64,000 bases of DNA from a virus. The stretch's first letter is position 1. Every line of letters begins with the position of its first letter. Positions 1-64,000 of this stretch are shown one piece after another. The stretch spans positions 1 to 64,000 of IMG/VR virus record IMGVR_UViG_3300028800_000004; one strand, written 5' to 3'. A program made the position numbers and the translations under genes. The notes beneath the pieces are model-generated. The model worked only from the letters and a program-made list of their open reading frames with translations, made no database searches and was not told the DNA's origin.

Positions 1-111
1 TTTTTTTTTTATTTTGGGGGCTTAATCAGGCCGGAAGGGGAGCAGAGGAACACAGTCCCCTGCCCAGTTATGTACATACCCGCTAGCGTTGCACTAGCAT
101 TACGAAGATGA

Positions 112-222
112 GCCTTGCGGCGGGACTCGACCCCACAACCTTCTCCACTAGGGTCTTCATTTGGGCCATGACTCCAAAGAGAGGACTTGCTGAAGCTGCT
201 CTGCCAATTGAGCTAAGCAAGG
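112..222 (-). ncRNA. tRNA-like gene, 111 nt, expanded anticodon region (CAU-containing hairpin)
   Basis: Minus-strand read: acceptor CCTTGCT/CGCAAGG, D arm GCTC-AATTGGCA-GAGC, T arm GTGGG-GTCGAGT-CCCGC. About 40 extra nt flank a TTGGA-GTCATGG-CCCAA hairpin. No CCA encoded. Confidence 0.4.
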
Positions 223-368: not shown

Positions 369-444
369 TGGCAAACCGAGTAGGATTTGAACCCACACCG
401 TAACGTTTTGGAGACGTACATCATAGCCATTAGACCATCGGAAT
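369..444 (-). tRNA. tRNA-Trp (CCA)
   Basis: Cloverleaf on minus strand: anticodon arm TACGT-CTCCAAA-ACGTT, variable ACGGT, T arm GTGGG-TTCAAAT-CCTAC, CCA encoded. Acceptor ATTCCGA/TCGGTTT has two U-U mismatches. Confidence 0.6.
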
Positions 445-695
445 GTTAGTGGCTTCTGGTTACCCAGCCCGATTTTACGGAAGACCTTGTGATCTAGCTT
501 TCGTCACCACTTAAACTTACCCAGTTTCTCTCGCGGGACTGGGAACCCTAGTGAACGGCAGTAGCGACTGCGCGGAGCCTGACGAACTAAACTTAGTGGC
601 CTATGAACGCTCTTTGCTTTAAGCTACACCCGTCCACTTAAGGGCGGGAGAAGAGGCGCAAATCTCTTTATCCTTCATGGAACCACTTACAAACT

Positions 696-767
696 TGGCT
701 GGGGCGGCAGGAATTGAACCTACGCCTTAGGTCTTTAGGACCTACGAACTATTTATTCTACGCCCCA
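696..767 (-). tRNA. tRNA-like, anticodon undetermined (loop CCUAAAG, C33)
   Basis: Acceptor TGGGGCG/CGCCCCA, T arm GTAGG-TTCAATT-CCTGC, CCA encoded. D arm is reduced (GAA/TTC) and anticodon arm TAGGT-CCTAAAG-ACCTA lacks U33. Confidence 0.4.
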
Positions 768-771
768 ATGG

Positions 772-843
772 AGCGCGGAGTGGGACTCGAACCCACGACA
801 AGCCGGAGTAGAATCGGCTGCTCTACCACTGAGCTACCCGCGC
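772..843 (-). tRNA. suppressor-type tRNA, anticodon CUA (reads UAG)
   Basis: 72-nt canonical cloverleaf: GCGCGGG TA GCTC-AGTGGTA-GAGC A GCCGA-TTCTACT-CCGGC TTGTC GTGGG-TTCGAGT-CCCAC TCCGCGC. Loop UU-CUA-CU. A31-C39 mismatch and C37 are unusual. Confidence 0.6.
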
Positions 844-847
844 AAAC

Positions 848-1090
848 TTATTGCGAACTTTCTGGAGTCCTCCAGAGCGGGTAATGTCTTAACAACTCTC
901 TTTGTTCTTCTCTAAGTGGAAGGGTAACAACCCCGCCAATCTTAAAGTCAAAGTCATTGTCTTCGAAAGCAACGTGTGGTATCTCGTTATCTTTCAGATA
1001 CTTAATTACATCTTGGAGTCCCTGACTATCGGGTACTCCTATCAAGACTATATAAGGGGGTTCCCCCTCATGTGCATACTCAGCCGACAT
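848..1090 (-). CDS. hypothetical protein embedded in tRNA cluster
   Basis: 80-aa ORF on the same strand as the flanking tRNAs. The IVLIGVP...IPHVAFEDND pattern only weakly recalls the C-terminal half of PTH2-type peptidyl-tRNA hydrolases (inference). Confidence 0.45.
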   Translation of the reverse strand: MSAEYAHEGEPPYIVLIGVPDSQGLQDVIKYLKDNEIPHVAFEDNDFDFKIGGVVTLPLREEQRELLRHYPLWRTPESSQ

Positions 1091-1188
1091 ATCAAATGTC
1101 GCATGGTTAGTCTGGATGATCTGCTGGGCAAGACTTATATCTTGCCGTACGAAAATATAGAAATACTTAATCTACGTCATTTTTCCTT

Positions 1189-1263
1189 TGGTGGATCGGG
1201 AGAGATTCGAACTCTCAACTTCCGGGTGCAAGCCGGGTGTTTTCCCATTAGAACTACCAACCC
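1189..1263 (-). tRNA. tRNA-Ala (UGC)
   Basis: Cloverleaf with anticodon loop CTTGCAC, G3-U70 identity pair in acceptor GGGTTGG/CCGATCC, T arm GAGAG-TTCGAAT-CTCTC, CCA encoded. Confidence 0.85.
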
Positions 1264-1269
1264 TAAGTT

Positions 1270-1345
1270 TGGTCGGGGCGGTAGGACTTGAACCTACATG
1301 ATGACTCGACTCCAGATCGAGAGGCTTACTTTAGCCCACACCCCG
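1270..1345 (-). tRNA. tRNA-Pro (UGG)
   Basis: Acceptor CGGGGTG/CGCCCCG, D arm GGCT-AAAGTA-AGCC, anticodon arm CTCGA-TCTGGAG-TCGAG, T arm GTAGG-TTCAAGT-CCTAC, CCA encoded. C33 and a 7-nt variable loop are atypical. Confidence 0.6.
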
Positions 1346-1421
1346 TTGGGGCACAGGCCCCCGTCTACGCTTTCGGCGCGGCGGGTGCTGGACGGTCGAT
1401 GTTTTTGTAAGTCATAATACC

Positions 1422-1431
1422 ATTATACCAC
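1422..1431 (-). promoter_or_regulatory. extended -10 promoter (TGGTATAATGG) upstream of tRNA cluster
   Basis: Minus-strand read gtgTGGTATAATGG sits about 75 nt upstream of tRNA-Pro. The same 11-mer occurs at the 4074 operon start. Confidence 0.35.
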
Positions 1432-1434
1432 ACT

Positions 1435-1638
1435 TTACGGGCGGCGGGGGTTTTCAGGCCAAACTATTTTAATTTGGGTCTTAGTAGCCACTTCCTCTAT
1501 CCGAAGTGATAGCTTGTCTTGGTTCAGGTCGTACATTGCGAGGGCTTCGTCAAAAAAATCAAAGTACCTCTCCTGTAACGGAACTTGGCATCCCGCCCAG
1601 CATACAATGTATTTTACTTTGATAAACGTTTCTCTCAC
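1435..1638 (-). CDS. hypothetical protein
   Basis: 67-aa ORF. GTG start overlaps the upstream stop (GTGA). Confidence 0.45.
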   Translation of the reverse strand: MRETFIKVKYIVCWAGCQVPLQERYFDFFDEALAMYDLNQDKLSLRIEEVATKTQIKIVWPENPRRP

Positions 1639-1811
1639 TTGTTGGTCTGTTTTTGTTTCTTAAAAGAAGGCCACGGTTTGTGGCTAATGGCTCCCGATTG
1701 GTCTTCGCCAGAGGAGGCGGGGCCGTCAGTGGTGTCTTTGTAGGCTTCCCCAAAGATATCTCGGAGTAGTTTCTCGTCGGCAGTTATCTCTTCTTCTTTG
1801 TCATAGCTCAT
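1635..1811 (-). CDS. hypothetical small protein (58 aa)
   Basis: Below the ORF-track cutoff. ATG at 1811 overlaps the stop of 1808..2212 (ATGA) and its own stop overlaps the next start, a coupled chain. Confidence 0.4.
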   Translation of the reverse strand: MSYDKEEEITADEKLLRDIFGEAYKDTTDGPASSGEDQSGAISHKPWPSFKKQKQTNK

Positions 1812-2212
1812 ATCAGTAAATCCAATGCTCCCATCGCCGCTACCCTACGAATCTGCTTCTTGAACTTAGCTCCGTGTCCGGGGTAAGGGCTGATGTAAAT
1901 GTGTATTGCCTCGTGGATGATGGTCTGTTTGGTCAGAATAGAATGGAACACAGCGGTTCCTCGGTCAAGAATGATACTCTGTACCCCGTTCTCATCTATA
2001 CCTACTATACCATATTCCCCGGCATCCAGCCAGTTCTCGTCCTCTTCTGCTGCGCCCTGAGATAACGAGGTGATCTTCAGAAGGGGGGCGGTGAGTACCC
2101 GCGTCGGCGCTAACTCTCCGTAGAAATAAAGCTTGTTAACCCTGTCAAAATACCTTTGGTATCTTAGGTTTGGACGGCATCCCTTAATCGTTCTGTTCTG
2201 AATCTTTACCAT
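1808..2212 (-). CDS. SprT-like zinc metalloprotease
   Basis: HEAIH (HExxH) motif followed by GHGAKFKK, the typical SprT-like layout. Confidence 0.65.
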   Translation of the reverse strand: MVKIQNRTIKGCRPNLRYQRYFDRVNKLYFYGELAPTRVLTAPLLKITSLSQGAAEEDENWLDAGEYGIVGIDENGVQSIILDRGTAVFHSILTKQTIIHEAIHIYISPYPGHGAKFKKQIRRVAAMGALDLLI

Positions 2213-2402
2213 CCAATTTACGGAATCCTATAAGTGTTTCGAGCATTCTAATTCTGACTTCGAAGTCGCTGATTATGTTGTACAGGCTGCGGGAAGACTC
2301 CGCCGTCATATTGTCCGACGTTACAATCGCGTAATAAATGCAACTGTCACAGTGTACAAATCCCGGCTTAGCCTCCCGTTCTGGGTGGGCTAAACACTTC
2401 AT
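2184..2402 (-). CDS. hypothetical protein
   Basis: 72-aa ORF in operon register. Contains a Cys/His pair (CLAHP...HCDSC). Confidence 0.45.
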   Translation of the reverse strand: MKCLAHPEREAKPGFVHCDSCIYYAIVTSDNMTAESSRSLYNIISDFEVRIRMLETLIGFRKLDGKDSEQND

Positions 2403-2794
2403 GGCTTAACGATACCCACAACTTGCTGTCCGTTGTCCCTGATCTGGATCGAATCATCCCATCCGTGGGCCTTACGAATCTTGTCTAAAGTCTTGGCAAA
2501 AGAGGACTTACGGTTCTTGTTAATCACTTTCAGTTGCTTCTTAATCGCCGCTTCCTGCTCTTTAGCCAACTGCAAACGAATCTCTAGCTGCTCCTGTGGG
2601 GTCAAAGGAACTTGAATCTCCGTCGGCTTAGGAGGCTCTGCTTTGGGAGCTTCCACCGGCTTAGAGGGTTCCTCGGGTCTGAGTTGGGGCGGCTGTACCT
2701 GCCGCTGAGGCGCGGGAGGGGGGACAGCCTTACTGGCCTCCTCTGAAAAAGAAGGACCCGTGAACAGTAAAATTCCTAGTAAAATTTTAATCAT
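2399..2794 (-). CDS. secreted proline-rich protein
   Basis: N-terminal hydrophobic signal MIKILLGILLFTGPSFS, then PPPAPQRQVQPP / EPPKP repeats. Confidence 0.6.
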   Translation of the reverse strand: MIKILLGILLFTGPSFSEEASKAVPPPAPQRQVQPPQLRPEEPSKPVEAPKAEPPKPTEIQVPLTPQEQLEIRLQLAKEQEAAIKKQLKVINKNRKSSFAKTLDKIRKAHGWDDSIQIRDNGQQVVGIVKP

Positions 2795-2816
2795 AATGTA
2801 TTATAACACCTTTAGG

Positions 2817-3143
2817 TTAGGGAGTCAAGTACTCTATCTTGAGATTCTCTTCCCTCATTTGTTCGTCAACTGCCCGATCTACTTCTCGGAGCTTGCCGAG
2901 TCTTCGTAGGGTTTCGACTTTATGCCACGCTTTGAACTCCGGAGTTTCAGCACATTTTCTAAAAGCTTCTTGCTTATTCCGGAACTGATCTCTACCGTCA
3001 CGGTGTTCCGCCCTTGCACCAGATTCGGGATGTATGCACCTGACTCCATTCTGTTTAGCGTTACGATGTTGACCCCCCTTGCCCCCCGTGCAGAACGTCT
3101 GGAACTCGAAGTCCTTCGCTGTCAGGCTGAATAACAGTGTCAT
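2817..3143 (-). CDS. class I release factor-like GGQ domain protein (ArfB/PrfH-like)
   Basis: TGGKGGQHRNAKQNGVRCIHPESG matches the RF-1 domain GGQ loop (SGPGGQNVNK..V...H.P.G). 108 aa with a basic C-terminal tail. GGAG 7 nt before the ATG. Confidence 0.75.
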   Translation of the reverse strand: MTLLFSLTAKDFEFQTFCTGGKGGQHRNAKQNGVRCIHPESGARAEHRDGRDQFRNKQEAFRKCAETPEFKAWHKVETLRRLGKLREVDRAVDEQMREENLKIEYLTP

Positions 3144-4079: not shown

Positions 4080-4109
4080 ATTATACCACGGATTCGCCTT
4101 TGTTGTCTA
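4080..4109 (-). promoter_or_regulatory. sigma70-like promoter, extended -10, possibly leaderless
   Basis: Minus-strand read TAGACA-N18-(TGG)TATAAT-GGAGT-ATG. The -10 ends 5 nt before the start codon at 4074. Confidence 0.45.
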
Positions 4110-9636: not shown

Positions 9637-9768
9637 GTTGGGATGAGTCGGCGGCGGGAGTAGGGAAACCCGCCAAGAGTGTCTGCAATACCTTCGAAGG
9701 ACATACCAAACCGGGTGGAGTATGTTGGAATTGTAGGCACGAGTATCAAGAGCACAAGGAGGAGAACC

Positions 9769-29880: not shown

Positions 29881-30102
29881 ATGAGCAGGCTAACTTTACA
29901 GAAAAGAAAGGACCCCCGAGACGACCAAGATACTTGGGGGTTCATGCTGGGAGACCTATTCTACGCCTTCTCGGACTTCGGAGGAAGCACCAGTAAGGAA
30001 TTAGCTACTATAGGTCTGGACTGGATTAAACAGGGATACGGGAATCCTTTCGACGGAGAGGACCCTAATAACTACGGACCAGTGTTGGAGGAGATAGAAT
30101 AG
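29881..30102 (+). CDS. hypothetical protein
   Basis: 73-aa ORF, tightly packed. Confidence 0.55.
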   Translation: MSRLTLQKRKDPRDDQDTWGFMLGDLFYAFSDFGGSTSKELATIGLDWIKQGYGNPFDGEDPNNYGPVLEEIE

Positions 30103-31244
30103 TGAAGGCAATCCTGCTTCAGGGTATGGCGTTCGGCGACGAGAGCAAAGGCGCGACAGTCGATGCTCTTTGTCGTAAGTTCCCTGTGGATCAGATAGTT
30201 CGGTATAATGGCGGTCCACAGACGGCCCATAACGTAGTAACACCACAAGGAGTACATCACACTTTCAGCCAGTTCGGGTCTGGAATGCTAGCTAACTCTA
30301 CTGTTAAGACACACTTATCTCGTTTCATGTTGATTAACCCGTTTAGTATGATGAGGGAAGCCGCCGCGTTGCCTACCTATACTCCGGTCTGGAACCGAGT
30401 TACCATAGACAGACAGTGCGTAGTCATCACTCCAATGCACAAAAGGCTTAATCAGTTAAGAGAGAAGGCAAGACGGGAAGGTGCCCACGGAAGTTGTGGG
30501 GTCGGTGTAGGGGTTGCCAGAGAACTCAGCCTGAGGTATGGTGATAGAGTGTTGTTAGTGGAAGACTTCGCGGACGAAAACAGAATCCACATGAAGCTAT
30601 TGTTCATGTTCTCGCAGTTAGGTTTCGAGATAGACAGGCTACAGAGAGAACTGAAGATTCCGGATATGGACTTTGATTTCGAGCACATGGCCCGTGCTTA
30701 CAAAGATTTCGGAAGTTACGCAAAAGTCGTTGACAAACTGGAGCCGAGTGACTTAATGTTGTTTGAAGGCGCTCAGGGCGTCCTGTTGGATGAGCGGAAG
30801 GAATTCCTGCCACACAACACTTGGACAAACTGCACCTTCGGAAACGCAGACAACCTCTTGTCAGAAGTCGGATGCAGTGATAGATTAAGGATTGGGTGCT
30901 TCAGATCGTACTTCACGAGGCACGGCCACGGGCCATTCCCAACGGAAGACGTGGACTTGACAAAATCCTTTAAGGAAGCGCATAATGGAACCGGAGAGTT
31001 TCAGGGTGCTTTTAGGTGTGGTAAATTTGATTTTGATTTAGCCAAAAAAGCACTTGACATTGTTGGCGGTTTGGATTATCTTTCTATTAGTCACTTGGAT
31101 CGGGCCTCGTTAGAAGTGGGCGATGAAATTTCAAGCACTCTAGGAGTTCCGGTAGGAGTCTGGGCCACGGGTCCCACATCAAACCACCGTGGTTTTAACT
31201 GTGAGTTGATCGACAGACTTGACAAGGTTTTGGAAACGTGTTAA
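30102..31244 (+). CDS. adenylosuccinate synthetase family protein, short form (PurA/PurZ-like)
   Basis: FGDESKG, RYNGGPQTAHN, GSCGVGVG, FEGAQGVLLD and TRHGHGPFPTE align with PurA WGDEGKG, RYQGGHNAGH, GTTGRGIG, FEGAQGTLLD and TRVGAGPFPTE. 380 aa versus about 430 for cellular PurA. Confidence 0.85.
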   Translation: MKAILLQGMAFGDESKGATVDALCRKFPVDQIVRYNGGPQTAHNVVTPQGVHHTFSQFGSGMLANSTVKTHLSRFMLINPFSMMREAAALPTYTPVWNRVTIDRQCVVITPMHKRLNQLREKARREGAHGSCGVGVGVARELSLRYGDRVLLVEDFADENRIHMKLLFMFSQLGFEIDRLQRELKIPDMDFDFEHMARAYKDFGSYAKVVDKLEPSDLMLFEGAQGVLLDERKEFLPHNTWTNCTFGNADNLLSEVGCSDRLRIGCFRSYFTRHGHGPFPTEDVDLTKSFKEAHNGTGEFQGAFRCGKFDFDLAKKALDIVGGLDYLSISHLDRASLEVGDEISSTLGVPVGVWATGPTSNHRGFNCELIDRLDKVLETC

Positions 31245-32339: not shown

Positions 32340-32699
32340 ATGGGTATAAAAGACCTACTTGAAAATGAAATGAAGGCCAGCCACGAGTTTTCTAAAAGTA
32401 ACTTTGGTGCTCAGGTGGGAGCGGCATACCCAGAGTTAGTAAAAGAAGTTTCTTCTAGCGATCCCGTATGCGCGACGTTGATGGTCGAATTGTGTATTGC
32501 TGGCATTACTGGAAAACAGGTAGCGGACAGTCTTAAGAAGCATAATGACTCAAAGGATTTACAGAAAGCTATCCTTGAGAATCTTCCCTCGTTTAACGGG
32601 CAGTTGTCCATGCTATACTGGGGTATCAACATAGGGCGTAAACTGGAAAAAGAAAGCCTCGAAGTTAACAAGCTTGAGGAAATGTTTGGAGGGAAATGA
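32340..32699 (+). CDS. hypothetical protein upstream of the Ro60 gene
   Basis: 119 aa from the ATG 8 nt after GGAG. Its stop overlaps the TROVE start. Confidence 0.55.
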   Translation: MGIKDLLENEMKASHEFSKSNFGAQVGAAYPELVKEVSSSDPVCATLMVELCIAGITGKQVADSLKKHNDSKDLQKAILENLPSFNGQLSMLYWGINIGRKLEKESLEVNKLEEMFGGK

Positions 32700-34063
32700 A
32701 AACCAATACTGCAATTAAGACCCCCGCTCCGAAGACGCACGAAGGTGCCACGGCAGCGCGTATCAATCCTGAGCAACAGCTTCGTCGTGTTGTTCTAGCA
32801 TCCATGTTGTTTGAAGACACCTTCTATTTGGACGGAGTTAGCTCTGCCCAGATCGTTGAAGACTCGGTTCAGGAAGTTCTTAAGAAAAAGAATGGCCCTC
32901 AAATCGTGTCCGATCTGGCATACGAAACCCGTACTAACGGTAAACTGCGCCATATCCCGTTGTTCTTGGCCCTGACTCTTGTTAGAGCAGGCAACAAAAA
33001 TACCAAACTCGGCGAGGAATGCCGTGCCGTGGTTGCGGAAACGCTGACCAAGATCATCCAGCGTCCGGACGAACTGGCGGAGTTTTTAGCTCTGTACTGG
33101 AAGGACAAGAAAGTTCCTTTGTCCAATCAGGTTAAGAAAGGACTCGCTGCTGCGTTCCAAAAGTTTGACAGGTACTCTCTGTCGAAGTACGCGAACCGGG
33201 AAGGCTCTATCTCTCTGCGCGACGTGTTGTTCTTGGTACACCCGCGTCCTCTGAACTCCGATCAACAGGAGTTGTGGAACGAGTTGGCCGAGAAGAAATT
33301 GGTTGCTCCGGATACTTGGGAGTCGAATCTGTCTGCTGGTGCGGATAAGAAAGAGACTTTCATTCGTCTGATCGAAGAGAAGAAGCTGGGTGCTTTGGCA
33401 CTACTCCGCAACTTGCGTAACATGCAACAGGCGGGAGTCCCGGATGATACCATCCGCAAAGCTTTGTCCGAAATGAAGACCGAACGTGTTCTTCCTTTCC
33501 GGTATATCTCTGCCGCTAACTACGCTCCGCAACTGGAGCCTGAGTTGGAACAGGCCATGTATCGTAGCCTTAAGGATCACGAGAAGCTGTCCGGCAAGAC
33601 CGTTCTGTTGGTGGACAATTCTGGAAGCATGGGTTCTCCCGTTTCCGGAAGATCGCAAATCAGCAGAGCCGATGCCGCTCAAGCACTGGCAATGTTGGTC
33701 CGTGAGATCAGCGAAACCAGCGAAGTGATTGTGTTTGGTACGACGGCTGGAAGCATTCCTCCCCGTAGAGGATTTGCTCTCCGCGATGCTGTCAGACATA
33801 GCCAACACGGAGGCGGGACTAACACGGAAGTTGCTAAGAAACTAGCAGATAAAGTTGGATACGACAGACTCATCATCTTCACCGATGAACAGTCGCATCA
33901 GGCTCTCTCTGCTCCTAAGGAAGGCTCCAAGGCTTACGTCATCAATGTGGCCGCATACCAGAACGGAGTTGGGTATGGGAAGTGGGTTCATATTGACGGG
34001 TTCTCGGAAGCTGCGGTAGACTTTATCCAGCAGTATGAGAAAGAGAAAAATGAGCTTGCTTAA
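32696..34063 (+). CDS. rsr: Ro60/Rsr-type protein (TROVE domain + vWA)
   Basis: N-terminal helical TROVE-like region (MLFEDTFY..., LRHIPLFLALTL, LRNLRNM). C-terminal vWA with LLVDNSGSM, GGGTN, IIFTDEQSH. Y-like RNA genes lie adjacent. Confidence 0.8.
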   Translation: MKTNTAIKTPAPKTHEGATAARINPEQQLRRVVLASMLFEDTFYLDGVSSAQIVEDSVQEVLKKKNGPQIVSDLAYETRTNGKLRHIPLFLALTLVRAGNKNTKLGEECRAVVAETLTKIIQRPDELAEFLALYWKDKKVPLSNQVKKGLAAAFQKFDRYSLSKYANREGSISLRDVLFLVHPRPLNSDQQELWNELAEKKLVAPDTWESNLSAGADKKETFIRLIEEKKLGALALLRNLRNMQQAGVPDDTIRKALSEMKTERVLPFRYISAANYAPQLEPELEQAMYRSLKDHEKLSGKTVLLVDNSGSMGSPVSGRSQISRADAAQALAMLVREISETSEVIVFGTTAGSIPPRRGFALRDAVRHSQHGGGTNTEVAKKLADKVGYDRLIIFTDEQSHQALSAPKEGSKAYVINVAAYQNGVGYGKWVHIDGFSEAAVDFIQQYEKEKNELA

Positions 34064-35911: not shown

Positions 35912-36919
35912 ATGAAAAACATATATCGCTGTGAATTCGGAAGTCATCTGTACGGTACTAATACGGAGGCTTCCGATCACGATTTTAAGTCGATCCATAT
36001 CCCATCCTCGGAGCAGATTCTACTTCAGAGGGTTCAGGATAGTACCGGCCATGTCGTGAAGAGGGAAGAAGGGGATAGAAACACCAAGGACGATACTGAT
36101 GACGAAAGTTACTCCCTTCAGAGATATTTATCTCTTCTAGCCGAAGGGCAGACCGTAGCTATCGATATGTTGTTCGTCCCTAAACCTCTGATTACAAGTG
36201 AAATATGGGAAGAAATCGTTGCGAACAAGGACAGGCTGGTCACTAAGAAGTCTTATTCCTTCGTGGGGTATTGTCGCACTCAGGCCAATAAGTATGGTAT
36301 AAAGGGTAGTAGGGTGTCAGCGGCTAAAGAGGCTATGGACTTCTTCGAGGAGGCAATTACTTTCAAAGGGCCGTTGGCTAAAGTAGGTGACTTGGGTTTG
36401 TTCCCCGCTGGAGAACACTCTCACACGGTGGTCAAGGAAACCACTCCCGGAAAGTTTGAGACGTACTTCGAGTGCTGCAATCGTATGGTAGGATATAAGA
36501 ACACTCTCAAGGAAGCGCACCATATCTTTTCCCGCATCTACGAGGAGTACGGCAAGAGAGCCAAGCTGGCCGAGTCCAACAATGGGATCGACTGGAAGGC
36601 TTTGAGTCACGCAGTAAGGGTAGGACATGAGGCTTTGGCTTTGTTATCAACTGGCGAAATTTCTTTTCCGTTGTTTAACGCACCGCATTTACTTGATATT
36701 AAAAAGGGCAGACTCCCCTACAAGGAAGTTGCTCAAGAAATAGAAGAGTTGCTGGAGGACGTGGAAGCGGCCTCTAAAACATCCCCGCTCCGGAAAGAGC
36801 CGGACTACAAGTACATCGATGGGTTGGTAAGGAGAGTTTATGGTAGAGAAGTTTTTAACGATTACTGTTTGGACAGTACTTACCACAATGGCGTATGCTC
36901 TGTTGCAGGGGAGGTTTAA
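35912..36919 (+). CDS. nucleotidyltransferase-fold protein (RlaP/DUF4037-like)
   Basis: N-terminal GSHLYGTNTEASDHDF (GS..YG...SD.D pattern of pol-beta-type NTases). Confidence 0.55.
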   Translation: MKNIYRCEFGSHLYGTNTEASDHDFKSIHIPSSEQILLQRVQDSTGHVVKREEGDRNTKDDTDDESYSLQRYLSLLAEGQTVAIDMLFVPKPLITSEIWEEIVANKDRLVTKKSYSFVGYCRTQANKYGIKGSRVSAAKEAMDFFEEAITFKGPLAKVGDLGLFPAGEHSHTVVKETTPGKFETYFECCNRMVGYKNTLKEAHHIFSRIYEEYGKRAKLAESNNGIDWKALSHAVRVGHEALALLSTGEISFPLFNAPHLLDIKKGRLPYKEVAQEIEELLEDVEAASKTSPLRKEPDYKYIDGLVRRVYGREVFNDYCLDSTYHNGVCSVAGEV

Positions 36920-37264: not shown

Positions 37265-37347
37265 GGCCGCGTGGTGAAATCGGCAGACACACTTGCCTTA
37301 GGAGCAAGCGCGAAAGCATGGGGGTTCAAGTCCCTCCGTGGCCACCA
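37265..37347 (+). tRNA. tRNA-Leu (UAG)
   Basis: Class II tRNA: CTTGC-CTTAGGA-GCAAG, long variable arm, GGGGG-TTCAAGT-CCCTC, CCA encoded. Confidence 0.85.
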
Positions 37348-37349
37348 GT

Positions 37350-37441
37350 GCGCTAGTGGCGAAGCTGGTTGAAACGCATCGGACTTAAAATCCGACACTG
37401 ATAAGTTCACAACGGGGGTTCGAACCCCTCCTAGCGTACCA
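37350..37441 (+). tRNA. tRNA-Leu (UAA)
   Basis: Class II tRNA: TCGGA-CTTAAAA-TCCGA, 18-nt variable arm, GGGGG-TTCGAAC-CCCTC, CCA encoded. Confidence 0.85.
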
Positions 37442-38565: not shown

Positions 38566-40638
38566 GTGTACCTTTATTTAGACACAGAATTTAGATCAGA
38601 ATTAGACCTTGAAGACGTTGGCCACTATAAGTATCTGAACCACACAAGTACAGAGCTTCTTATGGTGGCTTACGCTTTTGGGGATGAACCTATTAAGATT
38701 TGGGAAACCCATAAAGGCCCCATTCCAGAGGAGTTAAAGCAGGGTCTTGAGGACTACTTACAGATCATTGTTGCGTGGAACTCCGCCTTCGAGAGAATCG
38801 CTTTCCGTAGGCATTTAGGAATCAACATACCTCCTGAACGGTGGGAAGACCCGATGATCCGCTCTCGGTATATGTCTATGCCGGGAAGGTTAGAAAAAGT
38901 CGGCAAGATTCTAGATATCAAGGCCAAGAAGGTCACGGAGTTCTTTGTTAAAGAACAATCCATGATAAGCCTCTTCTCTTTTCCTTTACGGATGGGAGGA
39001 GATATAACGCTATGGGGTTTAGAACCAACAACATACAGGGACTGGGACACCCACCCGAAAGAGTGGGCCGCGTTCTGTGACTACTGCAAGACCGACGTGG
39101 CCGCGATGCGGGAAATCTTGTATCGGTTAGAAAAGTTTCCACTTCCGGACTTCGAGTACGAGCTATTCGCGCTCAATGAGGAGATCAACGACTACGGGAT
39201 ATACACGGATAAGATGCTGATCGAAGGCGCAGGGATCGTCGTAGATCGGGAATTTGCCGCGCTAAAGAAGGAGTTCACAGAGATCACGGGGTTAATAAAC
39301 CCTCGTTCGAACAAGTCCGTTCTGTTCTTTGCTAGGCAGCATGGGTATACCTTCTCTTCCCTGAACAAGCAGTATGTTAACAGAGCATTAAAAGGTGAGT
39401 GTACTCTAGACGCTTTGGGCCGACGAGCGTTGGAGCTACGTCTACAACTCGGTAAGAGTAGCGTTAGCAAGCTTGAGGCGGTCCGTAGCGCCGTCGAAGA
39501 TGATCGGAGGATACGTGGGCTGTTCAACTTCATGGGAGCGGCTAGAACAGGCCGCTGGACCTCGGGAATCGTGCAAGTACAGAACCTTGTGAAGGCGTCT
39601 AAGGAAGTCGAAGCGAACTTCGATCTTGCCTTGGATTTGCTTAAGGCCGGGAATTACGAACGAATTAAGCAGGAGTTCAAGAGTCCTATCGACGTAGCGG
39701 CCTCAGCCATACGCCCGATGCTCCGCGCTCCTGAGGGTAAGAAGTTCATTATAGCGGACTTAAACGCCATCGAGACTAGGGGAGCAGCATGGGTTGCGGA
39801 CTGCCAGCCTCTCATGGAAGTGTTTAGGCAGGGCAGATGCCCTTACATATCCTTTGCCGCCCAGATGGACCCATCCCGCAGCTATGATGAGTTATACAAG
39901 GAGTACAAAGCAGGCAACAAGACCACTCGTACTAACGCCAAGCCCCCTACCTTAGGGTGTGGGTACGGCCTTACTCCCGGCATCATCGATGTAGATGAGG
40001 ATGGTAACACGGTTAAGACGGGTCTGTTGGGGTACGCTGCGGCTATGGGTATCGAACTCCTCCCTGAGTACGCAGAGAAAGCTGTGCAAGTTTACCGGAA
40101 TGCCTACCGCGAGATACCTAAGTTCTGGTATGATTTACATGCGTGTGTAGTAGAAGTAATCGAGCACGGTGGGCTGGTACAGATCGGCCCCCTTACCATC
40201 GAGAAGATTGGGAGGGTGTTGTGTGTTTGGCTTCCGTCCGGTAGAGCACTACACTACATCAACCCGAGAGTAAGGGAAGTAGAGAGGGTATCGCTACGCA
40301 CTGGTAGACCCTACAAGACTACTGAGATTACTATTGAGGGGATAGATCAGAAGACCCACCAGTGGCAGGATATAACAACCCACGGGTCTAAGATTTTCGA
40401 GAACGTTGTCCAAGCAATTTGCAGGGACATACTCGGTCATGGTATGCTGGAAGCGAAACGTGATGGCTTCCCCATCGTCCTAACCTGCCACGATGAGATT
40501 GTGGCAGAGGTCGAGAACGGTTCTCCGTTAGGGGTACCAGAGCTAGTAGACTGTATGACTAGGAAGATTAGTTGGGCCGGAGGGTTTCTAACCGGAGCGG
40601 AAGGCTTCGAGACGGATTACTACAGGAAGGATGGGTAA
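38566..40638 (+). CDS. family A DNA polymerase with 3'-5' exonuclease domain
   Basis: Exo motifs LDTEF and WNSAFE. Pol motifs IIADLNAIETR (A), RTNAKPPTLGCGYG (B), LTCHDEIV (C). Confidence 0.9.
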   Translation: MYLYLDTEFRSELDLEDVGHYKYLNHTSTELLMVAYAFGDEPIKIWETHKGPIPEELKQGLEDYLQIIVAWNSAFERIAFRRHLGINIPPERWEDPMIRSRYMSMPGRLEKVGKILDIKAKKVTEFFVKEQSMISLFSFPLRMGGDITLWGLEPTTYRDWDTHPKEWAAFCDYCKTDVAAMREILYRLEKFPLPDFEYELFALNEEINDYGIYTDKMLIEGAGIVVDREFAALKKEFTEITGLINPRSNKSVLFFARQHGYTFSSLNKQYVNRALKGECTLDALGRRALELRLQLGKSSVSKLEAVRSAVEDDRRIRGLFNFMGAARTGRWTSGIVQVQNLVKASKEVEANFDLALDLLKAGNYERIKQEFKSPIDVAASAIRPMLRAPEGKKFIIADLNAIETRGAAWVADCQPLMEVFRQGRCPYISFAAQMDPSRSYDELYKEYKAGNKTTRTNAKPPTLGCGYGLTPGIIDVDEDGNTVKTGLLGYAAAMGIELLPEYAEKAVQVYRNAYREIPKFWYDLHACVVEVIEHGGLVQIGPLTIEKIGRVLCVWLPSGRALHYINPRVREVERVSLRTGRPYKTTEITIEGIDQKTHQWQDITTHGSKIFENVVQAICRDILGHGMLEAKRDGFPIVLTCHDEIVAEVENGSPLGVPELVDCMTRKISWAGGFLTGAEGFETDYYRKDG

Positions 40639-63619: not shown

Positions 63620-63640
63620 GCCGGGGGTTCTTTATTCTTC
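63606..63640. terminator. bidirectional rho-independent terminator
   Basis: AACCCCCGG-TTTAGG-CCGGGGGTT, with T-rich tracts on both strands, between convergent genes. Confidence 0.75.
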
Positions 63641-64000
63641 GGATTCAATTACCGGAGCTATTCGTTGCGCTCGTTTGAAGATCGGGTCCTCTGCTCTTTC
63701 GGCAGGGGTGAAATCCTTACGAGCTTTCTTAAGATAGCTCTTTGCTTTTTTGGTGATTAGTTTCTCCAGCACTTGCTTCTCTGAAGGGTTAGCAGTATCC
63801 CATACGGTCAACGCCCCACCGAAGTCGAGGCGGCTAACACGGGAATACAATCTAGCCGTTTCTGGGTCTTCCCCGGCAGTCTCCTTGACGTTCTTGATGA
63901 TCGCCTTGGCGTCCGCTTCCGGAAGATTACCTTGGTCTACCATCTGGGACAAATCTGCCGTTCTCAAGTTCCCTTGACGCATCTGATCCTCTAACTGGAG
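63632..64000 (-). CDS. hypothetical protein, 5'-truncated by the window edge
   Basis: ORF is open to position 64000 upstream of the first Met at 63982. Confidence 0.5.
   Translation of the reverse strand, partial: LQLEDQMRQGNLRTADLSQMVDQGNLPEADAKAIIKNVKETAGEDPETARLYSRVSRLDFGGALTVWDTANPSEKQVLEKLITKKAKSYLKKARKDFTPAERAEDPIFKRAQRIAPVIESEE

What the first reader, a model, noticed from the sequence alone, without database searches (positions are those of the whole stretch)
772..3143. CUA-anticodon (amber suppressor-type) tRNA next to a GGQ release-factor-like gene
The minus-strand gene at 772-843 folds into a 72-nt canonical cloverleaf whose anticodon loop is UU-CUA-CU, so it should read UAG. Two kilobases upstream in the same transcription direction is a 108-aa protein with the class I release factor GGQ loop (GGKGGQHRNAKQNGVRCIHPESG). 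Phage suppressor tRNAs together with release-factor genes are the published signature of stage-specific stop-codon recoding. In this window, however, TAG still works as a stop, followed by RBS plus ATG (for example 7996-98, 10612-14, 20881-83, 23915-17, 54867-69). Any recoding would have to affect genes outside this early and replication region. Alternatively the tRNA manipulates host termination. The A31-C39 mismatch and C37 are unusual, and the loop can also be drawn as 9 nt (AGCCG/CGGCT stem).
Basis: partly seen in the sequence, partly recalled or inferred. Interest (0 to 1): 0.7.

Follow-up and report, generated by a model that had tools for sequence, protein, structure and literature searches.

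The report
Amber-gated tRNA hydrolase with suppressor tRNA
This phage carries a tRNA that reads the stop codon UAG, and its only visible target is a UAG at the third codon of the small enzyme gene next to it; dozens of phages, some of them lab-grown, share this pairing, which gives these puzzling phage "suppressor" tRNAs a testable job.

Summary
Both observed features are real. tRNA(CUA) lies at 769-843(-). A 108-aa GGQ protein lies at 2817-3143(-).

- The GGQ protein is only the catalytic domain of a release factor and has no codon-reading domains.
- In 35 related phage loci it sits in ordinary tRNA arrays without a CUA tRNA.
- About 100 kb of this 114,911-bp genome was recovered. TAG ends about 22% of its genes, and terminase and the giant structural genes are intact in the standard code.

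It reads SD-ATG-ACG-TAG-ATT and then a 107-aa domain with a PTH2 (peptidyl-tRNA hydrolase 2) fold.
- 31 of 36 distinct homologous loci have the same in-frame TAG after a 2-12-codon leader. They include cultured Acinetobacter ME3, Salmonella Arash, Cronobacter GAP32, Ralstonia RsoM2USA and Xanthomonas XacN1.
- The gate codon is never TAA or TGA.
- The base after the TAG is a purine in 30 of 31 loci.
- At least 23 of the 31 loci have tRNA(CUA) nearby.

Best reading: a single-gene amber gate makes synthesis of the PTH2-like protein depend on the phage suppressor tRNA. Some relatives also carry tmRNA in the same translation-rescue toolkit. The evidence is comparative only. I found no earlier description.

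The parts
769..843 (-). tRNA with anticodon CUA (amber-suppressor type) and an encoded CCA end. Acceptor stem starts G1-C72, C2-G71, G3-C70, with U73. Anticodon loop is UUCUACU (C37), with A31.C39.
   Evidence: ARAGORN. Rfam tRNA 55.5 bits. Fold. Orthologues with the same acceptor stem and a canonical YUCUAAA loop are found in L065 and L084.
848..1180 (-). Amber-gated PTH2-like gene. ATG 1180-1178, ACG 1177-1175, in-frame TAG 1174-1172, ATT 1171-1169, then a 107-aa domain. Stop TAA at 850-848, 4 nt before the 5' end of the tRNA.
   Evidence: Sequence. Residues upstream of the first ATG (1090) match phrog_3668 'hydrolase'. AF2 model pLDDT 78.7; the top 14 PDB Foldseek hits are all PTH2. Profile against PDB peptidyl-tRNA hydrolase, E=2e-5. 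The gate is conserved in 31 of 36 loci.
1184..1188 (-). Shine-Dalgarno AAGGA, 3 nt upstream of the leader ATG. It lies in the 8-nt spacer after the 3' CCA of tRNA-Ala.
   Evidence: Sequence. An SD-like motif lies 5-12 nt upstream of the leader ATG in most gated loci.
1172..1174 (-). The gate codon: in-frame UAG at codon 3, followed by a purine (A1171).
   Evidence: It is the only SD-ATG-(1-12 codons)-TAG-R plus long-ORF site that corresponds to a real gene in the 100 kb seen. The +4 base is a purine in 30 of 31 gates.
699..767 (-). A second, unusual tRNA directly after tRNA(CUA). It has a short D-loop without GG and the anticodon loop CCUAAAG (C33). Acceptor stem starts U1-A72, G2-C71, G3-C70, with G73, followed by CCA (696-698).
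   Evidence: Rfam tRNA 51.2 bits; ARAGORN does not call it. Fold z=-4.4. L084 has a tRNA with the same loop in the same position.
1189..1263 (-). tRNA-Ala(UGC), immediately upstream of the gated gene.
1270..1345 (-). tRNA-Pro(UGG), first member of this tRNA/ORF array.
1422..1430 (-). Extended -10 element TGGTATAAT upstream of the tRNA array, a candidate promoter. This is inferred only.
   Evidence: Read from the sequence. A similar TGTTATAAT site at 2828-2800 was found by the promoter scan.
369..444 (-). tRNA-Trp(CCA), with two U.U mismatches in the acceptor stem. It belongs to the same leftward array.
2817..3143 (-). Stand-alone GGQ-domain protein (108 aa): release-factor domain 3 only. It belongs to the same leftward translation-related region but probably to another transcription unit.
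   Evidence: PF00472. phrog_3122. PDB hits only to the GGQ domain of RF1, RF2, mtRF1 and PrfH, with no ArfB. NCBIfam far below all cutoffs. A promoter-like site lies between it and the next gene.

Best explanation
The tRNA(CUA) is a phage amber suppressor. Its dedicated target in the genome is the gene directly 5' of it.

How the gate would work (inferred):
- Ribosomes start at SD-AUG (1180), read one sense codon and meet UAG at codon 3.
- If release factor 1 wins, only a dipeptide is made.
- If charged tRNA(CUA) wins, translation continues into a 107-aa PTH2-fold protein, a divergent peptidyl-tRNA-hydrolase paralogue.
- The UAG therefore acts as a translational gate. Output of the PTH2-like protein follows the cell's UAG-decoding capacity, that is, suppressor tRNA against RF1. 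This is a natural feed-forward or feedback circuit made of one tRNA and one codon.

Context. Gene and tRNA sit in one tRNA array. In relatives, a permuted tmRNA lies in the same neighbourhood as the gated gene (5 loci) or next to the GGQ gene (1 locus). The module therefore belongs to a phage toolkit for ribosome rescue and tRNA recycling. The 108-aa GGQ protein is a separate, codon-independent member of that toolkit, not a stop-codon-specific release factor. The genome otherwise uses the standard code.

Shown:
- Both features are real.
- The in-frame TAG is conserved, and it is linked to CUA tRNAs.
- The protein has a PTH2 fold.
- No other recoded gene occurs in 100 of 115 kb.

Inferred:
- The TAG is actually read through by this tRNA.
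- What the protein hydrolyses.
- Whether the loop is feed-forward or feedback.
For: 1. Conservation of the gate. In 31 of 36 distinct homologous loci, the nearest in-frame stop upstream of the conserved domain is TAG, never TAA or TGA. An ATG-initiated leader of 2-12 codons precedes it, usually with an SD. Binomial p=9e-11 against 1/3.
2. Codon after the TAG. It is ATT, GTT, GTC, GTA, AAC, AAT, ACC, ACG, ATC, GGG or CCA in 28 loci, and a canonical start (ATG or GTG) in only 3. Initiation after the TAG is therefore mostly impossible.
3. Context. The +4 base is a purine in 30 of 31 gates and never T (p=1.5e-8). Genuine TAG stops of this phage have +4 T in 10 of 29. From the textbook literature, a 3' purine favours amber suppression.
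4. Linkage. tRNA(CUA) genes (1-3 per locus) lie within the fetched flanks or genome in 23 of 31 gated loci. Among 35 GGQ-centred loci with about 400 tRNAs, the only CUA tRNA is in the only locus that also has this gene.
5. The region before the first ATG is coding. It matches phrog_3668 and forms strand 1 of a confident PTH2-fold model. Gene callers truncate these genes.
6. Fold and family. PDB Foldseek top 14 hits are all PTH2, E from 4e-5, TM 0.6-0.67. Profile against PDB peptidyl-tRNA hydrolase gives E=2e-5. BFVD top hit is RaK2 'peptidyl-tRNA hydrolase', TM 0.76.
7. No genome-wide recoding. 129 genes in 81 kb end in TAA 66, TGA 34 and TAG 29. Late genes are intact. Only one gate exists in 100 kb.
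8. Rescue context. Permuted tmRNA (RF04321, 59-92 bits) lies 1-2.5 kb upstream of the gated gene in 5 loci and next to the GGQ gene in L005.
9. Open puzzle. Authors of XacN1 and Summit could not find targets for their suppressor tRNAs. XacN1 ORF364 carries the gate.
Against: - There is no direct evidence of read-through; everything is comparative.
- This window's tRNA is the least canonical of the 24 compared. It has a pyrimidine at position 37 (C37) and A31.C39, so it may suppress weakly.
- In 8 gated loci no CUA tRNA was seen, although only +-2.5-4 kb was searched.
- In 3 loci the codon after TAG is ATG or GTG, and in XacN1 an ATG follows 5 codons later. A suppressor-independent start is possible there.
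- TAG ends about 22% of this phage's genes, with no excess of back-up stops. An efficient suppressor would extend many phage proteins.
- The canonical PTH2 'GK' lysine aligns to a deletion plus Gln. Hydrolase activity is therefore not assured.
- 14.6 kb of the genome was not seen.
Confidence: 0.66

Rival explanations
1. Stage-specific stop-codon recoding. The suppressor tRNA and an RF-like protein switch the infected cell to TAG=sense, so that late genes with in-frame TAG can be expressed.
For: - Suppressor tRNAs together with RF genes are reported in TAG- or TGA-recoded phages.
- 14.6 kb of the 114.9-kb genome was not recovered.
- The late operon avoids TAG stops: 1 of 19 genes.
Against: - Large terminase (656 aa) and the late genes of 2548, 1785, 1010, 762, 618, 520 and 369 aa are uninterrupted and tightly packed in code 11.
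- TAG is a stop in 29 of 129 genes.
- The late operon avoids TGA as well (18 of 19 TAA). This looks like a TAA preference of highly expressed genes, not TAG avoidance.
- The GGQ protein has no codon-recognition domains and is not linked to CUA tRNAs in relatives.
- Cultured carriers of the module are annotated and work in code 11.
Confidence: 0.05
2. Mini-uORF with re-initiation. ATG-NNN-TAG is a real two-codon upstream ORF, a lambda-bar-like minigene. The PTH2-like ORF is then translated by termination-reinitiation at the adjacent codon, independent of any suppressor. The CUA tRNA is there for another reason.
For: - In L065 and L084 the codon after TAG is ATG, and in L051 it is GTG.
- ATT, found in 8 loci, is a rare bacterial start codon.
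- From textbook knowledge, two-codon minigenes cause peptidyl-tRNA drop-off, which is the substrate of peptidyl-tRNA hydrolases. A regulatory link is therefore conceivable.
Against: - Most gates are followed by GTT, GTC, GTA, AAC, AAT, ACC, ACG, ATC, GGG or CCA, none of which is a start codon.
- Leaders of 8-12 codons occur (L039, L042, L044).
- The stop is always TAG, matching the co-located CUA anticodon. A uORF could end in any stop.
- The SD lies in front of the leader ATG, too far from the post-TAG codon.
Confidence: 0.1
3. Host-directed or anti-defence suppressor. The main job of tRNA(CUA) is to act on host translation or defences, and the gate is only a side regulator. Possible actions: compete with RF1, or protect UAG-occupied A sites from RelE-type mRNA interferases or other attacks on translation, alongside tmRNA, the GGQ protein and PTH2.
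For: - tmRNA, the GGQ domain, PTH2-like genes and large tRNA arrays co-occur.
- Up to 3 different CUA tRNAs with different acceptor identities occur per phage. That is odd for encoding one residue but fine for simply occupying UAG.
- PTH2 in jumbo phages has been proposed to serve ribosome rescue after tRNA cleavage.
Against: - No defence or toxin gene was identified here.
- It does not explain why the gate sits specifically in this gene family.
- It is compatible with, rather than an alternative to, the gate model.
Confidence: 0.15
4. Decay. The TAG is a nonsense mutation in a dying gene, and the aberrant tRNA (C37, A31.C39) is a degenerating copy with a chance CUA anticodon.
For: - The anticodon arm of this tRNA is unusual.
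- Neighbouring tRNA-like elements look degenerate: 699-767, about 100-220, and tRNA-Trp with U.U mismatches.
Against: - The same TAG position recurs in 31 lineages at 25-65% protein identity, with intact ORFs and conserved R9, D11, Q17 and H23.
- The family has 1942 cluster representatives.
- Identical contigs of this phage were assembled from many samples.
Confidence: 0.03

Closest known systems
Stop-codon (TAG) recoding in phages with suppressor tRNAs: Lak, crAss-like and other lineages (Borges et al. preprint 10.1101/2021.08.26.457843)
   Same: A phage-encoded tRNA(CUA) decodes in-frame TAG in phage genes in a standard-code host. In-frame stops are proposed as post-transcriptional regulators.
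   Different: There, dozens to hundreds of late, structural and lysis genes are recoded, TAG stops are depleted, and full-length RF2 is sometimes present. Here one small early-region gene is recoded, at codon 3 in a non-conserved leader. TAG remains a frequent genuine stop, and the RF-like gene is only a GGQ domain.
prfB (RF2) autoregulation through an in-frame UGA
   Same: A translation-termination-related gene carries, near its 5' end, the very signal whose decoding it is tied to. Its synthesis therefore reports the cell's capacity to decode that stop codon.
   Different: prfB is bypassed by +1 frameshifting and senses RF2 itself. Here bypass would be by a dedicated suppressor tRNA, and the gated product is a PTH2-like protein whose effect on UAG decoding is unknown.
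Synthetic suppressor-tRNA feed-forward loop with amber codons near the start of the target gene (Ho et al. 2021, PMC7969014)
   Same: The logic is the same: target expression needs both its mRNA and a co-expressed amber suppressor tRNA. This gives AND-type, leak-free, delayed output.
   Different: That system is engineered in E. coli. This one is natural, conserved in phages and embedded in a tRNA array.
PTH2 (peptidyl-tRNA hydrolase 2, PF01981) of jumbo phages (Iyer et al. 2021, PMC7824862; RaK2, PMC3622015)
   Same: Same fold, with profile-level sequence similarity. It occurs in phages rich in tRNAs and RNA-repair genes. UniProt names the RaK2 member peptidyl-tRNA hydrolase.
   Different: This is a divergent paralogue. 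It falls below Pfam's threshold, and the 'GK' lysine loop is replaced by a shorter loop with Gln. GAP32 has a canonical PTH2 as well. Neither the amber gate nor the link to the suppressor tRNA appears in either of the two papers read.
ArfB/ICT1 and PrfH: GGQ proteins that release peptides without reading a stop codon
   Same: The 108-aa protein has the GGQ catalytic domain and lacks the RF1/RF2 codon-reading domains, so any activity must be codon-independent.
   Different: It has no basic C-terminal tail like that of ArfB (net charge near zero). It has no PrfH domain 2/4 equivalent. It gives no ArfB hit in PDB or NCBIfam. How it would be recruited to ribosomes is unknown.
Suppressor tRNAs of standard-code cultured phages with no known target (XacN1, PMC5852040; Stenotrophomonas phage Summit, PMC9022506)
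   Same: CUA tRNAs occur in phages that otherwise use the standard code.
   Different: Those reports looked downstream of annotated amber stops and found nothing. Here a conserved target is identified at the 5' end of a gene, and XacN1 ORF364 has it too.

Membership tests
tRNA (Rfam RF00005) | Cloverleaf with acceptor, D, anticodon and T arms; score at or above the gathering threshold | tested here: met
   55.5 bits against 29. ARAGORN call. The MFE fold is a cloverleaf.
Amber suppressor tRNA | Anticodon 5'-CUA-3' at positions 34-36 of a 7-nt loop with U33 | tested here: met
   Loop is U32 U33 C34 U35 A36 C37 U38.
Amber suppressor tRNA | Purine at position 37 and a closed 31-39 pair, as in efficient suppressors | tested here: not met
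   C37 and A31.C39. All 23 other phage CUA tRNAs compared have a purine at 37: A37 in 22, G37 in L043c.
Amber suppressor tRNA | Aminoacylated and able to read UAG in vivo | not testable with these tools
   Supported only indirectly, by the conserved in-frame TAG in the adjacent gene.
tRNA-Pyl (ARAGORN's label) | Pyl-type architecture (small D-loop, 6-bp anticodon stem, 3-nt variable loop) and pylS/pylBCD genes | tested here: not met
   The D-loop is canonical with GG, the variable loop is 5 nt and the T-loop is canonical. No pyl genes appeared among the annotated ORFs. The label reflects the anticodon only.
Class I release factor RF1/RF2 | GGQ catalytic domain 3 | tested here: met
   PF00472 E=1e-10. 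The GGQ motif is visible in the sequence.
Class I release factor RF1/RF2 | Codon-recognition domains 2/4 (PxT or SPF motif) and domain 1; length about 350 aa | tested here: not met
   The protein is 108 aa. It aligns only to residues about 210-290 of RF1/RF2, at 34-38 bits against cutoffs of 370-423.
ArfB / ICT1 | GGQ domain plus a basic C-terminal tail that probes the empty mRNA channel | tested here: not met
   No ArfB or ICT1 hit in PDB at E<=1 or in NCBIfam. The C-terminal half has about equal numbers of acidic and basic residues (counted from the sequence).
PrfH (RF-H) | About 200 aa with an N-terminal domain besides GGQ; paired with RtcB | tested here: not met
   TIGR03072 scores 37 bits against a cutoff of 167, matching only the GGQ part. 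No RtcB gene lies next to it.
PTH2 (PF01981) | PTH2 alpha/beta fold | tested here: met
   AF2 pLDDT 78.7. Top 14 PDB hits are all PTH2, TM 0.6-0.67, probability 1.0. BFVD hits are phage and viral PTH proteins.
PTH2 (PF01981) | Sequence match at Pfam's gathering score | tested here: not met
   The window protein gives no hit. 5 of 17 family members give weak hits, best E=0.035. A family profile does reach a PDB peptidyl-tRNA hydrolase at E=2e-5.
PTH2 (PF01981) | Catalytic residues. The Lys of the 'GK' loop and the Asp of 'DAG' are recalled from memory of the S. solfataricus work. | tested here: inconclusive
   The Lys position aligns to a 2-residue deletion plus Gln16/17. A nearly invariant Asp73 lies near the expected Asp. 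R9, D11, Q17 and H23 are conserved.
TAG-recoded (code 15) phage | Many genes with in-frame TAG; better gene integrity under TAG=sense; TAG depleted as a stop | tested here: not met
   One gated gene in 100 kb. TAG ends 29 of 129 genes. Late genes are intact in code 11. 14.6 kb was not seen.

The most novel reading that the evidence does not exclude
The amber gate and its suppressor tRNA form a natural sensor of UAG-decoding capacity, charged suppressor tRNA against RF1. The sensor controls a PTH2-like tRNA-ester hydrolase. Together with phage tmRNA and the stand-alone GGQ protein, it would form a counter-defence module. That module would keep translation running when the host attacks the ribosomal A site or tRNAs, for example with RelE-type mRNA interferases (which prefer UAG) or anticodon nucleases. 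In some lineages the gated ORF has no stop codon before the abutting tRNA. Its product would then have to be released by a stop-independent factor, which would link all the parts functionally.
Probability: 0.2. Interest if true: 0.9.

Novelty: new variant of a known kind. Interest (0 to 1): 0.78.

Why it matters
- **A long-standing puzzle.** Suppressor tRNAs turn up repeatedly in phages that use the standard code. Authors have said explicitly that they could not find what these tRNAs read (XacN1, Summit). This analysis identifies a conserved target at the extreme 5' end of a gene, where read-through searches downstream of annotated stops and ordinary gene callers do not look.
- **A new scale of recoding.** Stop-codon recoding in phages is not only a genome-wide code switch. 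It can also be a one-codon, one-gene regulatory device, the natural counterpart of synthetic suppressor-tRNA feed-forward circuits.
- **Directly testable.** The module is present in cultured phages of Acinetobacter, Salmonella, Cronobacter, Erwinia, Serratia, Yersinia, Ralstonia and Xanthomonas.
- **Annotation fixes.** Genes of this family are truncated, split or missing in GenBank records.
- **An uncharacterised enzyme family.** This PTH2 paralogue family has about 1900 cluster representatives at 50% identity, and its activity is probably tied to UAG decoding or ribosome rescue.

Tried and rejected
- **Genome-wide recoding.** I compared ORF coverage under TAG, TGA or TAA as sense. I also scanned for TAGs followed by long start-less ORFs and for SD-ATG-leader-TAG-R sites in 100 kb. 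Only the PTH2-like gene qualifies. A second SD-bearing hit, at 9643, lies in an intergenic stretch 126 nt upstream of the called start and was dismissed.
- **Back-up stops.** I tested whether TAG-ending genes have more tandem back-up stops. They do not: median 10 codons to the next stop, against 8.5-12 for the others.
- **First searches with the PTH2-like protein.** Plain searches against PDB and Pfam found nothing. The fold search and deeper profiles were needed.
- **Neighbouring genes.** Pfam on the genes between the tmRNA and the gated gene in L041 and L043 gave no hits. No SmpB or other partner was identified.
- **Amino-acid identity of the tRNA.** The nearest tRNAs in the same genome are only 69-72% identical (Phe, Thr, Met, Gly). 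The acceptor end (G1-C72, C2-G71, G3-C70, U73) resembles the bacterial tRNA-Gly identity set from memory. The inserted amino acid remains undetermined.
- **tRNA-like element at about 100-220(-).** Neither ARAGORN with introns allowed nor Rfam recognises it.

Full report
**1. The observation**

ARAGORN finds nine tRNAs in the window. One, at 769-843(-), has anticodon CTA and an encoded CCA. Rfam's tRNA model scores it 55.5 bits against a gathering score of 29. The Rfam alignment shows the loop U32-U33-C34-U35-A36-C37-U38 and an A31.C39 mismatch. The minimum-energy fold instead uses the AGCCG/CGGCU stem with a 9-nt loop. ARAGORN's 'Pyl' label only reflects the anticodon, because the D, variable and T regions are canonical.

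ORF 2817-3143(-) encodes 108 aa with GGKGGQ. It matches the Pfam RF-1 domain at E=1e-10 and phrog_3122 'RF-1 domain peptide chain release factor' at E=4e-19.

**2. The GGQ protein**

It aligns only to the GGQ domain (about residues 210-290) of RF1, RF2, mtRF1 and PrfH. ArfB and ICT1 do not appear. NCBIfam scores are 34-38 bits against cutoffs of 166-423. It is therefore release-factor domain 3 on its own. It cannot read a stop codon, and it has no ArfB-like basic tail.

A search of viral contigs gave 35 related loci at 47-88% identity. In these the gene sits inside large tRNA arrays of up to 38 tRNAs. Only one locus, L020, has a CUA tRNA. In L005 and L006 a permuted tmRNA lies next to it (Rfam 89 bits for L005). 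It is a general member of a phage translation toolkit and not a partner of the suppressor tRNA.

**3. The genome and its code**

The window has no close relative among sequenced isolates. It encodes DNA polymerase I, primase-helicase, ribonucleotide reductase, a UvsX-like recombinase and other replication and nucleotide-metabolism genes, but no structural genes.

Exact-protein look-ups placed the window in a 114,911-bp genome that was assembled identically from several samples. By walking out from the window I recovered 7.6 kb to the left, containing large terminase and nine more tRNAs. I recovered about 29 kb to the right, containing late genes of 2548, 1785, 1010, 762, 618, 520 and 369 aa. 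About 100 kb was seen in all.

- All these genes are uninterrupted and tightly packed in the standard code.
- In a codon-usage-scored gene set over 81 kb, stops are TAA 66, TGA 34 and TAG 29. TAG-ending genes have no excess of nearby back-up stops.
- The late operon uses TAA in 18 of 19 genes (Fisher p=1e-4). It avoids TGA as well as TAG, so this looks like the usual TAA preference of highly expressed genes.
- Genome-scale TAG recoding is therefore not supported. 14.6 kb remains unseen.

**4. The gene next to the tRNA**

Between tRNA-Ala (1189-1263) and tRNA(CUA), the mechanical ORF list gives an 80-aa ORF starting at ATG 1090. The frame stays open upstream of it, back to 1171. That upstream stretch, IKYFYIFVRQDISLAQQIIQTNHATFD, matches the N-terminus of phrog_3668 'hydrolase'.

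On the minus strand the sequence reads: CCA (end of tRNA-Ala), AAGGAAAA, ATG ACG TAG ATT AAG TAT TTC .... That is a Shine-Dalgarno, a start codon, one sense codon, an in-frame amber codon at 1174-1172, and then the domain. The gene's TAA (850-848) lies 4 nt before the first base of tRNA(CUA).

**5. Conservation of the amber gate**

I collected homologues in five ways:
- degenerate-pattern scans of viral contigs;
- the protein databases;
- exact-protein contig look-ups;
- tblastn against cultured phages;
- bacterial genome assemblies.

In 31 of 36 distinct loci, the nearest in-frame stop upstream of the conserved YxYxFVRxD block is TAG. It lies 2-13 codons before the block. An ATG-initiated leader of 2 codons (18 loci) or up to 12 codons precedes it, usually with a clear SD 5-12 nt upstream. 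None has TAA or TGA at that place (binomial p=9e-11).

The codon after the TAG is ATT, GTT, GTC, GTA, AAC, AAT, ACC, ACG, ATC, GGG or CCA in 28 loci. It is ATG or GTG in only three. In most loci, then, translation cannot start after the TAG.

The base after the TAG is a purine in 30 of 31 gates and never T (p=1.5e-8). Genuine TAG stops of this phage are followed by T in 10 of 29 cases. From the classical E. coli literature, recalled and not tested here, a 3' purine favours amber suppression and a 3' U favours termination.

Homologues that gene callers appear to start normally (P0003, P0005, P0010) all turned out to have the gate just upstream. Many database entries begin at internal Met28 or at other false starts.

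**6. Linkage to CUA tRNAs**

Twenty-three of the 31 gated loci have one to three tRNA(CUA) genes in the fetched flank or elsewhere in the genome. These often lie 0-30 nt after the gene and otherwise within about 3 kb. For the other eight loci only +-2.5-4 kb was examined.

The association is specific. Among the 35 GGQ-centred loci, with about 400 tRNA genes, the single CUA tRNA is in the single locus that also has this gene.

Non-gated homologues:
- L050 (GTG start) is followed by tRNA-Arg instead.
- RaK2 has an ATG start.
- L089 has an ATG start.
- L054 and L055 are N-terminal fusions. They do have a CUA tRNA, 1.1-2.2 kb upstream.

The window's tRNA is orthologous to those of L065 and L084, with the same GCGCGGG...CCGCGC-U-CCA acceptor. 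Theirs have the canonical YUCUAAA loop, whereas the window's has C37.

**7. Cultured phages carry the module**

- Acinetobacter phage ME3: ATG ACT TAG ATT, with an annotated 'anticodon CTA' tRNA 450 nt upstream.
- Salmonella phage Arash: ATG CTG TAG AAC, with a CUA tRNA 1 kb downstream that GenBank calls tRNA-Phe. Its 'peptidyl-tRNA hydrolase' CDS is cut down to 50 aa.
- Cronobacter phage GAP32: ATG GCA CAA TAG AAT, with a 'Sup-tRNA' 2.8 kb downstream. Close homologues of its gene (86-99% protein identity) occur in its relatives CBB, XbC2, Serratia BF, the Erwinia SNUABM phages and Yersinia fHe-Yen9. I did not inspect their start regions for the gate.
- Ralstonia phage RsoM2USA: ATG TTG TAG ATT; the gene is not annotated at all.
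- Xanthomonas phage XacN1 ORF364: ATG AAA TAG ACC, with an extra N-terminal domain. The XacN1 authors reported two CUA tRNAs and stated they could not identify their targets. The same was said for Stenotrophomonas phage Summit.
- Two Chloroflexota MAG contigs also have the gate, with a CUA tRNA about 600 nt upstream of it.

**8. What the gated protein is**

An AlphaFold model built from 17 homologues has pLDDT 78.7.

- Its 14 best PDB matches are all PTH2 peptidyl-tRNA hydrolases: MJ0051, TA0108, AF2095, human Bit1, PH1539 and S. solfataricus Pth2. E-values start at 4e-5, TM is 0.6-0.67, and scores drop sharply after these hits.
- A 78-sequence profile reaches a PDB peptidyl-tRNA hydrolase at E=2e-5 and AF2095 at E=0.03.
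- The best BFVD match is the RaK2 protein that UniProt names peptidyl-tRNA hydrolase, TM 0.76.
- Pfam PF01981 is matched only weakly.
- The alignments place the canonical 'GK' lysine opposite a two-residue deletion and Gln16/17. R9, D11, Q17, H23 and D73 are conserved.
- GAP32 has a canonical PTH2 in addition.

The gated family is thus a divergent PTH2 paralogue, with about 1900 representatives at 50% identity. Its exact substrate is unknown. PTH2 in jumbo phages has been noted and linked to ribosome rescue. Neither of those two papers mentions the amber codon or the suppressor tRNA, and seven full-text searches found no description of this arrangement.

**9. Most likely mechanism**

Shown: the gate, its context, its linkage to CUA tRNAs, the fold, and the absence of other recoded genes.

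Inferred: ribosomes start at the leader AUG and reach UAG at codon 3. RF1 then releases a dipeptide, or the charged phage tRNA(CUA) inserts an amino acid and the PTH2-like protein is made. The TAG lies in a non-conserved leader, so which amino acid is inserted should not matter. That fits phages carrying up to three CUA tRNAs with different acceptor identities.

Output therefore depends on both the mRNA and UAG-decoding capacity. This is the logic of the engineered suppressor-tRNA feed-forward loop. It also recalls prfB, whose 5'-proximal in-frame stop reports termination capacity. Sequence alone cannot decide between two possibilities:
- the protein limits suppression, for example by hydrolysing the suppressor's ester (negative feedback);
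- the protein handles the consequences of suppression or ribosome stalling (feed-forward).

In five relatives a permuted tmRNA lies 1-2.5 kb upstream of the gated gene, which points to ribosome rescue and tRNA recycling.

**10. Caveats**

- No experiment supports read-through.
- This window's tRNA has a suboptimal anticodon arm.
- A strong suppressor would extend the 22% of phage proteins that end in TAG.
- Three gates are followed by ATG or GTG, so those genes could also start independently.
- Eight gated loci showed no CUA tRNA in the short flanks examined.
- The catalytic lysine of PTH2 is missing.
- 14.6 kb of the genome is unseen.

**11. Verdict**

The 'tRNA plus release factor means stage-specific recoding' reading is not supported. 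What is there is a conserved single-gene amber gate coupled to a phage suppressor tRNA. This is a new variant of phage stop-codon recoding. It gives suppressor tRNAs in standard-code phages a concrete target that can be tested in cultured systems.

Noticed in passing
window 699-767 (-), with CCA to 696: A second tRNA lies directly after tRNA(CUA). Rfam scores it 51 bits, but ARAGORN misses it. It has a short D-loop without GG. Its acceptor end (U1-A72, G2-C71, G3-C70, G73) resembles the tRNA-Gln identity set as I recall it. Its anticodon loop is CCUAAAG, with C at position 33. L084 has a tRNA with the same loop in the same position (ARAGORN: 73-nt 'Leu taa'). What it decodes is unclear.
   Followed up: partly
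L039 3525-3600; L041 4007-4081 and 4402-4477; L042 5538-5611; L044 5305-5384; L049 3496-3593: ARAGORN reports tRNAs with 2- or 4-base 'anticodons' (6- or 8-nt loops, e.g. 'ctag', 'taaa', 'gcaa') beside the CUA tRNAs of related and huge phages. They could be frameshift-type or decoy tRNAs. I re-read the L049 one as a long-variable-arm tRNA with a normal CUCUAAA loop.
   Followed up: partly
window about 100-220 (-): A tRNA-like element has recognisable acceptor, D and T arms but about 50 extra nt where the anticodon arm should be. ARAGORN with introns allowed and Rfam both fail to call it, and its fold is no better than shuffled sequence.
   Followed up: partly
window 445-698: About 250 nt without a convincing ORF lie between two tRNAs in the array. 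No Rfam family matched at E<=1.
   Followed up: partly
window 369-444 (-): tRNA-Trp(CCA) has two U.U mismatches in the acceptor stem and the lowest tRNA score in the window (42 bits).
   Followed up: no
L049/L020, L051, L047, L087, L088 (and window 844-850): In eight lineages a tRNA gene starts 0-29 nt after the end of the PTH2-like domain. In five of them there is no stop codon before that tRNA, so RNase P processing would leave a non-stop mRNA. In the window the stop is 4 nt from the 5' end of the tRNA. This could connect the gene to tmRNA or GGQ-type stop-independent release.
   Followed up: partly
L075 431-19597 and window 63632 onward (late operon, right of the window): Eighteen of 19 late genes end in TAA, against 50% in the early and replication region (Fisher p=1e-4). 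TGA is absent and TAG is used once.
   Followed up: yes
L005 4774-5025; L041 511-732; L042 1087-1314; L043 1656-1858; L046 1959-2157; L057 1357-1550: Related phages encode permuted (two-piece) tmRNAs (Rfam RF04321, 59-92 bits) next to the GGQ gene or 1-2.5 kb upstream of the gated PTH2-like gene. None was found in the window or in its left flank (L066); the right-hand flanks were not scanned.
   Followed up: yes
window 30102-31244 (+) and 38566-40638 (+): An adenylosuccinate-synthase/PurZ-like gene (phrog_1211; NCBIfam PurA 1e-37, PurZ 5e-9, both below cutoff) lies in a phage with its own DNA polymerase I. This may hint at 2-aminoadenine (Z) DNA.
   Followed up: no
window 32696-34063 (+), 35912-36919 (+), 37265-37441 (+): A Ro/Rsr-like RNA-binding protein (phrog_850) and a nucleotidyltransferase (phrog_388, possibly a CCA-adding enzyme) sit beside a tRNA-Leu pair. 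These are further RNA-repair or tRNA-maintenance genes.
   Followed up: no
window 63632-64000 and beyond (L061 10985-18631): A 2548-aa protein with a weak ART-PolyVal (ADP-ribosyltransferase polyvalent protein) match starts just inside the right end of the window, on the minus strand.
   Followed up: no
GenBank OQ632216 (Arash), MG752970 (RsoM2USA), NC_019401 (GAP32), NC_041884 (ME3): Public annotations of this gene are wrong because of the TAG. Arash has a 50-aa 'peptidyl-tRNA hydrolase' fragment, and its CUA tRNA is labelled tRNA-Phe. RsoM2USA has no gene called. The GAP32 and ME3 CDSs are truncated.
   Followed up: yes
window 2800-2828 (-), 4080-4109 (-), 1422-1430 (-): Three similar extended -10 promoter-like sites (TGnTATAAT) head the leftward transcription units. 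The GGQ gene and the tRNA/PTH2-like array are probably transcribed separately.
   Followed up: partly
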